Source: Octopus vulgaris (lineage: Eukaryota). From it: a stretch of 64,000 nt of DNA. The stretch covers positions 8,742,001-8,806,000 of the forward strand of contig OX597822.1 of assembly GCA_951406725.2 (NCBI GenBank), in the 5' to 3' direction. This document shows positions 10,286 to 59,840 of the stretch, one piece after another; the first letter of the stretch is position 1, and each line of letters starts with the position of its first letter. The notes under the pieces are model-generated. The model did not search any database, was not told the origin of the DNA, and was given only the letters and a program-made list of their open reading frames with translations. The translations under genes were made by a program, and so were the position numbers.

Positions 10286-10478
10286 TAGTTCCCGGGTTGA
10301 TTCGGGGTTAACCACAGTAAGTAAGGTACTCAATACATAGCAGAGTAAAATTAATTTATTATATAGAAGGAGCTTCTACAGGACTAGTACTGTTTCATTC
10401 AAGAGAAATCTTCAGGAGCTTCCTGAAGATTTCTCTTGAATGAAACAGTACTAGTCCTGTAGAAGCTCCTTCTATATA

Positions 10479-10484
<6 letters not shown>
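10286..10484. mobile_element. Penelope-like pseudo-LTR fragment arranged as a head-to-head palindrome (64-bp arms 10354-10417 / 10421-10484)
   Basis: Perfect inverted repeat with a 3-nt spacer, inserted in the SINE's (TA)n; contains a hammerhead core followed by AATAAA. Confidence 0.75.
10414..10470 (+). ncRNA. Type I hammerhead ribozyme motif (short stem II, GUA cleavage site after 10461)
   Basis: Stem I aggagcttc/gaagctcct; CTGAAGA 10423-10429; stem II ttc-tctt-gaa with a non-canonical U-U closure; GAAA 10442-10445; stem III cag/ctg with palindromic loop (actagt); TA. Confidence 0.7.
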
Positions 10485-18347: not shown

Positions 18348-19231
18348 AATCTCAGCTTGTATATAAGTGCGCATGTAAATATGTGTGTTTATATGTGTGC
18401 ATATATGTATTATAGGAACGCACGAATATGCAACATTCATTCATGTGCCATACATACATTGCGATGCTTGAACTCATCAAAGTGGGATCCACTATGCATT
18501 GGATCTCTTTGATTCCGAATAAGCATGTCGACTGCTTATTCAGAATCAAAAAGTAACTCACCTAAAGTATAATATCGAAATATAGTATAGAACAAAGTTT
18601 TAGATAGTGAAAGGTCTCTGAACGCCAATCGTGTCACCTTAGAAGATTCAAATGAAATGCATACTGCATTAAGGCTTTCTCAGTTGGCTTTTGACCAAAT
18701 TGTGACATTCATAAAGATATATCTGGTTCTGAATCTATCAAAAAATTATGGAAGTTAATGAAAGTTTTTCAATTTATAATATTACATGTATAAGACCCTT
18801 CTGCATATGTATCAATAGGTTAGTGCTATAAACAGATAGCATTACTTAATCTTCACCACAATGATCGATTTCATTGATTACTCTAGTACGTTCGATAATT
18901 CATTAATTAAAGTCTATGCTATCTACATTCAGAAAGCAATTCAAACGAGAAAATCTATACGACATAAGAATTTGTTTCCCTGCATTGACTTAAATCTTGA
19001 AGATATCGTTGGCTGTGTAATTATCCTCGTATTTAAATGCTGTTATTGGAATTCATTGCTGTTCATCTTTACGGTGTCAATAAAGTCCTATTCAAGTACT
19101 GGGGTGGATGATTACCCATACTCACTTTCTCTTTTAACATTCCTGGCATTGTGCCAAAATTAGTAACTACTACTACTGCTACTGTTGCTGTTGTTGTTAG
19201 TTTTATTCTTACTTTTATTGTTAAAGCGGCA

Positions 19232-28012: not shown

Positions 28013-28016
<4 letters not shown>
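27707..28016 (+). mobile_element. tRNA-derived SINE family C
   Basis: ggaggcgcaatggcctagtggttagggcagcggactcgc...ggtttcgattccc tRNA-like head; (cacggtgat)2 tail; second copy at 37475-37640. Confidence 0.85.
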
Positions 28017-28072
<56 letters not shown>

Positions 28073-28190
28073 AATCAAGGAACGGCCATAATAGGCCATT
28101 CACCCACTAGAAATAACAGCCAAAAGCTTTAACCGCAAAATAACATTAATACCGTAAACCAGGAGAAAATTGAAAAACTTTTACCCTGTA

Positions 28191-28297
28191 ATTTCTTAGA
28201 CGATGCACCGTTTCATCTACCGTTTAATGGTAAACTAACCTGATTAAATTAAATCAAGCCAATCCACCATAGGCCCTTAGACTCATCAGTAAGAAAT
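28191..28297 (-). ncRNA. Type I hammerhead ribozyme (inverted copy)
   Basis: Reverse complement of 28746-28852. Confidence 0.88.
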
Positions 28298-28745
28298 AGC
28301 CAAATCGGAACAGATATTTTTCACGAGGCATTCCTCTTGCTGCCTCGGCAATATCTGACCTAAAATTTTCAAATCGTCGCACTCGCGCCAAATTTATCGG
28401 CAGCAAATGAACCACCGATTCCGTTACGGAACTAACCAGAAAATTCATAATTAATCAATATAGGGTGGCAAAAAAATTTTGTAGAATTCTTTTGCCACCA
28501 GCGGCCTAGTAGGAAAAAATCAAATAGTCATAAACCATTTTTACGTTCAACATCACAATCAAGGAACGGCCATAATAGGCTATATTGATTAATTATGAAT
28601 TTTCTGGTTAGTTCCGTAACGGAATCGGTGGTTCATTTGCTGCCGATAAATTTGGCGCGAGTGCGACGATTTGAAAATTTTAGGTCAGATATTGCCGAGG
28701 CAGCAAGAGGAATGCCTCGTGAAAAATATCTGTTCCGATTTGGCT

Positions 28746-28852
28746 ATTTCTTACTGATGAGTCTAAGGGCCTATGGTGGATTGGCTTGATTTAATTTAAT
28801 CAGGTTAGTTTACCATTAAACGGTAGATGAAACGGTGCATCGTCTAAGAAAT
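28746..28852 (+). ncRNA. Type I hammerhead ribozyme, GUC cleavage after 28844
   Basis: Stem I atttctta/taagaaat; CTGATGA 28754-28760; stem II gtcta/tagat enclosing a long hairpin; GAAA 28829-28832; stem III cgg-tgca-tcg; TC. Confidence 0.9.
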
Positions 28853-29229
28853 TACAGGGTAAAAGTTTTTCAATTTTCTCCTGGTTTACGGTATTAATGT
28901 TATTTTGCGGTTAAAGCTTTTGGCTGTTATTTCTAGTGGGTGAATGGCCTATTATGGCCGTTCCTTGATTGTGATGTTGAACGTAAAAATGGTTTATGAC
29001 TATTTGATTTTTTCCTACTAGGCCGCTGGTGGCAAAAGAATTCTACAAAATTTTTTTGCCACCCTATATTGATTAATTATGAATTTTCTGGTTAGTTCCG
29101 TAACGGAATCGGTGGTTCATTTGCTGCCGATAAATTTGGCGCGAGTGCGACGATTTGAAAATTTTAGGTCAGATATTGCCGAGGCAGCAAGAGGAATGCC
29201 TCGTGAAAAATATCTGTTCCGATTTGGCT

Positions 29230-29336
29230 ATTTCTTACTGATGAGTCTAAGGGCCTATGGTGGATTGGCTTGATTTAATTTAATCAGGTTAGTTTACCAT
29301 TAAACGGTAGATGAAACGGTGCATCGTCTAAGAAAT
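29230..29336 (+). ncRNA. Type I hammerhead ribozyme, GUC cleavage after 29328
   Basis: Same sequence as 28746-28852, shifted by 484 bp. Confidence 0.9.
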
Positions 29337-29556
29337 TACAGGGTAAAAGTTTTTCAATTTTCTCCTGGTTTACGGTATTAATGTTATTTTGCGGTTAAAG
29401 CTTTTGGCTGTTATTTCTAGTGGGTGAATGGCCTATTATGGCCGTTCCTTGATTGTGATGTTGAACGTAAAAATGGTTTATGACTATTTGATTTTTTCCT
29501 ACTAGGCCGCTGGTGGCAAAAGAATTCTACAAAATTTTTTTGCCACCCTATATTGA

Positions 29557-29593
<37 letters not shown>

Positions 29594-59639: not shown

Positions 59640-59840
59640 GCCGTGTGTACGGTTGGCGATTTTTTTCCTCCGTCTTCCCTTCTCAGGATCTTTCCTTTTC
59701 CTGTGTTTCTGACGAAGAGTTCCGCTCGAAACGTTAAGCCCTCCTTCTTCCCTTCCTTCCTGAGCGTCCAATAACACTATAGTTGTTCCACGTTCTCGCG
59801 TTGTTGTGTTTTCTCTTTGTGTTTTCATGTTTGGATTAAC

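What the first reader, a model, noticed from the sequence alone, without database searches (positions are those of the whole stretch)
28761..28828. Unusually extended hammerhead stem II whose 19-bp hairpin is held by G-U wobbles
Inside stem II (gtcta/tagat), atggtggattggcttgatt pairs with aatcaggttagtttaccat over 19 positions. All six non-Watson-Crick positions are G-U or U-G. The hairpin is therefore uninterrupted only as + strand RNA, which suggests selection on RNA structure and fixes the functional polarity. Most type I hammerheads have a short stem-loop II, so a ~58-nt insertion is atypical. It could be a protein-binding or tertiary-contact domain (inference).
Basis: partly seen in the sequence, partly recalled or inferred. 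Interest (0 to 1): 0.72.

Follow-up and report, generated by a model that had tools for sequence, protein, structure and literature searches.

The report
Long-armed hammerhead in octopus-like retrozyme
The hairpin is real and is the long second arm of a hammerhead (self-cutting RNA) motif found in every examined subfamily of an abundant non-coding jumping repeat; it likely just caps a small loop that is predicted to brace the ribozyme, so it is an unusual version of a known kind of element.

Summary
In detail: 19 uninterrupted pairs (13 Watson-Crick, 6 G-U) in a 58-nt stem II insert, stable only on the ribozyme strand (-21.7 vs -5.3 kcal/mol). It sits in a type I hammerhead carried by a 484-bp non-coding unit, present here as one inverted plus two tandem copies in a (TA)n tract. 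This is an animal non-LTR retrozyme with Penelope-type insertion ends and well over a thousand genomic copies. Across subfamilies the pairing is kept (88 of 89 distinct inserts fold 8 bp or more), but length (6-19 bp), sequence and the wobbles are not: each of the six G-U pairs is Watson-Crick in some relative. The better tertiary-contact candidate is the internal loop below the hairpin, which covaries with a GGY motif beside stem I (predicted pseudoknot). Subfamily-specific A-to-G changes show an ADAR-like context, so some wobbles may be fixed RNA edits (a hint only). Cleavage, circles and protein binding are untested. The scan already noted long stem II hammerheads elsewhere in this genome and in another. 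New variant of a known kind.

The parts
28068..29564 (.). Whole insertion: one inverted 516-bp piece followed by two direct 484-bp units plus 17 bp
   Evidence: copies 100% identical apart from the junction
28068..28583 (-). Inverted copy; its 3' end (unit position 396, 'site 1') abuts the left TA tract
28580..29564 (+). Two tandem 484-bp units; 3' end at unit position 17 of a third ('site 2')
28016..28069 (.). Left (AT)n target tract
29562..29589 (.). Right (TA)n target tract
28746..28852 (+). Type I hammerhead, copy 1: stem I 28746-28753 / 28845-28852, core 28754-28760 and 28829-28832, predicted cut after C28844
   Evidence: covariation
28761..28828 (+). Extended stem II: 5-bp base, 7x7 internal loop (28766-28772 / 28817-28823), distal hairpin
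28773..28816 (+). 19-bp distal hairpin (13 WC, 6 G-U) with 6-nt loop: the finding
28742..28745 (+). GGCU beside stem I, predicted pseudoknot partner
   Evidence: inferred from covariation
28768..28771 (+). GGCC in the 5' strand of the stem II internal loop, predicted pseudoknot partner
   Evidence: inferred from covariation
28832..28843 (+). Self-complementary stem-loop III (4 bp + UGCA), predicted dimer interface
   Evidence: 12-bp duplex, -17.5 kcal/mol
29230..29336 (+). Hammerhead copy 2 (hairpin 29257-29300)
28191..28297 (-). Hammerhead copy 3 in the inverted piece (hairpin 28227-28270)
29460..29564 (+). 105-nt 'tail' between the two preferred 3' ends, with a 15-bp hairpin at 29512-29547

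Best explanation
The hairpin is the outer part of stem II of a type I hammerhead motif in a 484-bp non-coding repeat that is likely a Penelope-mobilised retrozyme; it likely serves as a sequence-tolerant helical cap, while the internal loop beneath it is predicted to pair with a GGY motif beside stem I and so brace the active fold. Inferred cycle: tandem units are transcribed; neighbouring hammerheads pair through the palindromic stem III and cut after C28844; 484-nt monomers or their circles are reverse-transcribed by a Penelope-like RT/GIY-YIG protein at nicked (TA)n tracts from two start sites 105 nt apart, giving tandem and inverted arrays. Shown: sequence, copy structure, covariation, end positions. 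Inferred: pseudoknot, cleavage, dimer, circle, helper element.
For: All core letters are present and stems I, II-base and III covary across 34 diverged copies: 12 of 20 predicted pairs change on both sides; the variable stem III pair takes all four Watson-Crick forms and stays self-complementary in 89 of 91 distinct cores (the pattern fixed the loop letters). Hairpin pairing is kept while length varies: inserts 46-71 nt, 6-19 bp, 88 of 89 with 8 bp or more. In the 19-bp class 82 of 437 cells are G-U and 9 are A-C (counted); G-U is shared by several copies at 9 pair positions, A-C at 1. Pseudoknot: in 80 of 90 distinct contexts with both anchors, the pair next to GG/CC is C-G 52, U-A 17, U-G 7, unpaired 4; 0 of 5000 shuffles reach this. 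Ends: 35 of 51 distinct insertion ends are 3' ends at one of two sites next to TA repeats, and 14 of 16 insertions with two 3' ends have one end at each site, none the same site twice. This matches the PLE 'tail on one end' and inverted structure (10.1101/2021.04.23.441226, passages) and two RT start sites (PMC11167929). Intact PLE ORFs ending in TA tracts exist in this genome. Precedents: internal loop 2 under a capping hairpin in CChMVd(-) (PMC2632901, passages); stem I/II pseudoknots in about 40% of hammerheads (PMC3088659, passages).
Against: No cleavage, probing or strand-specific RNA data. The pseudoknot covariation is probably one C-G to U-A switch along the tree, the shuffle ignores relatedness, and the three flanking positions do not beat shuffles clearly (4299, 267 and 215 of 5000); 10 of 90 contexts lacked an anchor and were dropped. 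Only 1 of 19 hairpin pairs changes on both sides in the long class, below the shuffled mean. The monomer's lowest-energy fold (-34.2) is not the active one (-30.0), and the first stem II pair is G-U rather than G-C. No autonomous PLE sharing sequence with the unit was found among 30 GIY-YIG loci or 12 loci of a second family. Eight of nine predicted Xenopus retrozymes did not cleave in vitro. The apical loop is more conserved than a passive cap needs (61 of 92).
Confidence: 0.62

Rival explanations
1. Several G-U pairs are A-to-I edits made by ADAR on the RNA template and fixed when the edited RNA was reverse-transcribed into a new subfamily. Compatible with the best explanation; it changes why the wobbles exist.
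For: Letters private to one subfamily: A to G 25 vs T to C 15 (p 0.005 after base composition), C to T 15 vs G to A 14 (p 0.12). 11 of the 25 have a 3' G against 15.9% background (p 0.0008) and 8 are U/A-A-G (p 0.001); the antisense control is 3 of 15 (p 0.48). The ADAR neighbour preference is recalled, not from a call. Four of the six wobbles alternate with A-U in relatives. G at 28778 occurs in three backgrounds. One RNA-guessed run has a loose end with four A-to-G changes seen in 0 of 41 genomic matches.
Against: Post hoc tests on small counts, direction inferred only from neighbouring real copies, some positions counted in two comparisons. Two apparent edits turned out to be genomic subfamilies (642 and 243 matches). 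Two wobbles alternate mainly with G-C, which editing cannot give. Selection alone tolerates A to G in A-U pairs. Runs are contigs, RNA status is a guess, and no matched DNA exists (run X15 lacks the G28822 letter of this subfamily).
Confidence: 0.35
2. The hairpin is a binding site for the PLE protein or a host RNA-binding protein needed for mobilisation or RNA stability.
For: No copy among 89 distinct inserts has lost the hairpin altogether. Apical loop UAAUUU in 61 of 92 and at least one AUUUA in 90 of 92. A PLE hammerhead is protein-assisted in vitro (PMC11167929). A PLE 3' repeat in this genome also has a 55-nt stem II (L182).
Against: Helix length spans 6-19 bp and the sequence differs between classes. 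The conserved apex is a slippage-prone pentamer repeat. The search patterns required a long insert, so short-stem relatives could not be found. The inferred RT start sites lie 131 and 236 nt downstream of the cut, not at the hairpin.
Confidence: 0.2
3. The stem I/II contact is the usual non-canonical one (5' U of loop 1 with 3' A of loop 2) made by the A-rich 3' strand of the internal loop, and the GGY/RCC match is incidental.
For: The 3' strand of the loop is A-rich in most subfamilies; this contact is the commonest in natural hammerheads, including an internal loop 2.
Against: In this subfamily that strand ends in GG; GG and CC are kept at bounded distances and their neighbouring pair covaries.
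Confidence: 0.18
4. The hairpin is a neutral inverted duplication or DNA-level cruciform that is decaying.
For: Inverted structures arise often during this element's insertion; the apex is low-complexity.
Against: Neutral decay would give G-T and A-C about equally; 82 vs 9 cells were seen. Pairing persists across classes about 72-74% identical and beyond.
Confidence: 0.03

Closest known systems
Animal non-LTR retrozymes (PMC7229834, passages and section 14 read; bioRxiv 10.64898/2026.07.22.740005, parts 1-3 of 5 read)
   Same: Non-coding tandem units with one type I hammerhead each, low GC, short palindromic stem III, highly self-paired monomer, co-occurrence with PLEs.
   Different: Stem II holds 46-71 nt with an internal loop and a distal hairpin instead of about 4 bp and a short loop; unit of 484 nt is above the 170-400 nt reported for invertebrates; strict (TA)n targeting with paired ends was not described in the passages read.
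Hammerheads in PLE pseudo-LTRs (PMC4209133, parts 1-2 of 4 read; PMC11167929, parts 1-2 of 4 read)
   Same: Type I, palindromic stem III, larger-than-usual helix II (6-8 bp), inverted 5' copies, tail from two RT start sites, AT-rich targets.
   Different: No ORF here; helix II far longer; tail about 105 nt rather than 30-40; no sequence link to a PLE found.
CChMVd (-) hammerhead (PMC2632901, passages read)
   Same: Domain II has an internal loop that makes the tertiary contact, capped by a further hairpin.
   Different: Viroid motif whose loop 1 is a hairpin loop, with a non-canonical contact and a GAAA-capped domain II; here a 19-bp cap and a predicted Watson-Crick pseudoknot.
Pseudoknotted hammerheads (PMC3088659, passages read)
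   Same: Watson-Crick pairing between stem I loop region and nucleotides just after the stem II strand; by my reading the same topology as the type II consensus.
   Different: Here only 3-6 bp, in a repetitive type I motif whose stem II is closed by a long hairpin.

Membership tests
Type I hammerhead ribozyme | Conserved core CUGANGA, GAAA, UH around a three-way junction | tested here: met
Type I hammerhead ribozyme | Stems I, II, III supported by covariation, stem I open | tested here: met
   (12 of 20 pairs change on both sides)
Type I hammerhead ribozyme | Rfam RF00163 gathering score | tested here: not met
   22 bits vs 34, E 0.028, whole model matched, on the two + copies; no hit at gathering. 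Likely the insert penalty; this lowers 'Rfam member', not 'works like'.
Type I hammerhead ribozyme | Stem I / stem II tertiary contact | tested here: inconclusive
   one covarying pair, probably one event
Type I hammerhead ribozyme | Self-cleavage at the UH site | not testable with these tools
   only assembled contigs available
Animal non-LTR retrozyme | Tandem units each with an intact type I hammerhead | tested here: met
Animal non-LTR retrozyme | No coding capacity, no LTR structure | tested here: met
   484-bp unit abuts TA tracts directly; no tblastn match of two PLE proteins in the window; PBS/PPT not searched
Animal non-LTR retrozyme | Dispersed, high-copy, recently mobile | tested here: met
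   439, 744 and 642 matches to three patterns (small overlaps not removed); identical copies on several contigs
Animal non-LTR retrozyme | Expressed as monomeric circular RNA | not testable with these tools
   no holder on record as RNA; contigs cannot show strand or ends
Animal non-LTR retrozyme | Mobilised by, or derived from, a PLE | tested here: inconclusive
   PLE-type ends and inversions; no homologous PLE among 42 loci checked
Autonomous PLE pseudo-LTR | Adjacent RT plus GIY-YIG ORF within the same element | tested here: not met
   no PLE match in the window; PLE pieces near some copies were, where read (L105, L093), separate insertions beyond a TA tract

The most novel reading that the evidence does not exclude
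This retrozyme family evolves through host A-to-I editing: ADAR edits its folded RNA, a Penelope RT copies the edits into DNA, and new subfamilies arise whose G-U pairs are fossil editing sites, all within a hammerhead that pairs an internal loop 2 with stem I by pseudoknot and carries a free helical arm.
Probability: 0.2. Interest if true: 0.72.

Novelty: new variant of a known kind. Interest (0 to 1): 0.42.

Why it matters
Standard screens miss this motif (below Rfam cut-off), so hammerhead counts in such genomes are too low by at least a thousand copies. The natural series of subfamilies gives ready-made variants for testing how a hammerhead tolerates a long stem II and whether a pseudoknot replaces the usual contact. 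The strict one-end-per-site rule constrains models of Penelope integration. If the editing hint holds, it is a route by which RNA edits become heritable sequence in a mobile element.

Tried and rejected
Rfam at gathering threshold: nothing. Reading A28773G and G at core position 7 in RNA-guessed runs as editing: rejected, both are large genomic subfamilies; my notebook entry 2 predates this and also gives the pseudoknot partner one base off. No RNA holder listed on record; laid contigs show presence of the family in runs of four organism labels but no strand, ends or cleavage. Helper search: the 778-aa PLE family (L123) showed no hammerhead or similarity to the unit; the 781-aa family has its own short hammerhead and no similarity. 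Pfam found nothing on two PLE fragments. RNA model R1 was built without structure and not used. Bacterial promoter scan is uninformative here. MAFFT misaligned the pseudoknot region, so anchored counts were used. No ancestral states were computed, so direction of change rests on comparison of neighbouring real copies. Literature: six searches listed no paper on cephalopod retrozymes or such a long type I stem II; a 2026 octopus repeat annotation has 0 main-text occurrences of 'hammerhead' or 'retrozyme' (PMC13282606). The 2017 RNA Biology paper on PLE hammerhead variants (recalled) was not read, and no supplements were opened; they may hold similar variants.

Full report
Observation. The two arms pair over 19 positions with 13 Watson-Crick and 6 G-U pairs and a 6-nt loop, inside a 5-bp stem II base, giving a 58-nt insert. 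The hairpin folds at -21.7 kcal/mol against -5.3 for its reverse complement, and 0 of 1000 shuffles match it.

Context. The motif is a type I hammerhead (stem I 28746-28753 / 28845-28852, core 28754-28760 and 28829-28832, predicted cut after C28844). It lies in a 484-bp unit present as an inverted 516-bp piece and two tandem copies between TA tracts. Rfam matches it only below cut-off (22 vs 34 bits). The genome is 2.8 Gb; an octopod is my inference from size and repeat content. Three patterns gave 439, 744 and 642 matches. 98 of the first 100 listed are this young subfamily; 87 of 90 fetched contexts carry the identical hairpin, so its own copies cannot test covariation.

Diverged subfamilies can. 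Copies about 72-74% identical and more distant classes all keep the architecture: stem II base, internal loop, distal hairpin. Of 89 distinct inserts (46-71 nt), 88 fold 8 bp or more and 82 fold 12 or more; the ribozyme strand is more stable in 77 and less in 8. The patterns required a long insert, so short-stem relatives would be missed. In 23 copies of the 19-bp class 94.3% of cells pair, 12 pairs vary on one side only, and 1 pair varies on both; the covariation score beat 498 of 500 shuffles, which ignore relatedness. G-U cells number 82, A-C cells 9 (counted). Each of the six wobbles is Watson-Crick in some relative. So pairing on one strand is kept; the wobbles themselves are not. The whole monomer shows the same strand bias.

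Where the tertiary contact likely is. A GGY motif just 5' of stem I and an RCC motif in the 5' strand of the internal loop occur in 80 of 90 distinct contexts. The pair beside the GG/CC anchor is C-G 52, U-A 17, U-G 7, unpaired 4 (0 of 5000 shuffles). On the tree this is probably a single switch, with the U-G subfamily branching between. Flanking positions extend the helix to 5-6 bp in some classes but do not clearly beat shuffles. A pseudoknot of 3-6 bp is therefore predicted, not shown. It has precedent (PMC3088659), as does an internal loop 2 under a capping hairpin (PMC2632901). This explains why a long arm is tolerated: the contact sits at the usual height and the hairpin would point away.

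Stem III is self-complementary in 89 of 91 distinct cores, takes four Watson-Crick forms, and one subfamily swaps the UGCA loop for the palindrome UAUA. The intermolecular duplex is -17.5 kcal/mol, while the monomer prefers a non-active fold by 4 kcal/mol. This fits the dimer mechanism described for animal type I motifs (PMC4209133).

Mobilisation. Of 51 distinct insertion ends, 42 are 3' ends at one of two sites about 105 nt apart, 35 of them next to TA repeats; 7 are 5' ends and 2 map elsewhere. Of 16 insertions with two 3' ends, 14 have one end at each site and none has the same site twice; the other two mapped one end ambiguously. The window follows this rule. It matches the PLE tail and inversion pattern and the two RT start sites shown for an anole PLE. 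Active PLE families ending in TA tracts are present, and one PLE 3' repeat has its own 55-nt stem II, but none of 42 loci checked shares sequence with the unit. The helper is unidentified.

Origin of the wobbles. Letters private to a subfamily are A to G 25, T to C 15, C to T 15, G to A 14. The A-to-G set is enriched for a 3' G (11 of 25 vs 15.9%, p 0.0008), the antisense control is not. Four of the six wobbles alternate with A-U. One RNA-guessed run has a four-fold A-to-G loose end absent from 41 genomic matches. Against this: two apparent edits were genomic, the tests are post hoc, and no matched DNA exists. I rate fixed editing at about 0.35. The mussel retrozyme paper raised editing as a possible source of heterogeneity.

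Verdict. A real, family-wide long stem II in a known class of element. Retrozyme assignment about 0.9, pseudoknot about 0.65, passive cap about 0.6. Earlier notes of this scan report the long stem II in this and another genome; I checked the architecture independently before reading them. New variant of a known kind; interest 0.42.

Noticed in passing
window 10354-10484: Near-perfect 131-bp palindrome ending at a TA tract; each arm carries a short hammerhead-like core. Similar sequence occurs in at least five other loci (L211, L150, L184, L103, L153), so it is likely the inverted 3' end of another PLE-type family.
   Followed up: partly
window 59709-59740: Minimal hammerhead-like core in a repeat that ends at a TA tract and matches at least 12 other loci at 83-93%.
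   Followed up: partly
window 18505-18553: 21-bp stem on the minus strand, unexplained.
   Followed up: no
L123 358-2691 (G000:C1:75009929-75014116): Young PLE family with an intact 778-aa frame and 316-bp terminal repeat ending in TA; no hammerhead found by pattern, although C-terminal-endonuclease PLEs are said to have one.
   Followed up: partly
L191 1-1791 and 2770; L196: Second active PLE family (781-aa frames, CxxxxCxxC linker) with a short hammerhead showing the U3-A8 core variant.
   Followed up: partly
L182 1878-1951; L192, L193, L206, L067, L069, L071: Other, unrelated hammerhead families in this genome also have stem II inserts of about 54-60 nt, one of them downstream of a PLE frame.
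   Followed up: partly
L178 (G000:C1:7117149-7120167): Sister subfamily of about 492 bp, 642 matches, with palindromic UAUA loop III, a further G-U at hairpin pair 1 and a GUA cut site.
   Followed up: partly
runs X15, X17 on window 28690-28900: DNA-like runs hold sister subfamilies but little or none of this subfamily's G28822 letter, suggesting the expansion is recent and population- or species-specific.
   Followed up: no
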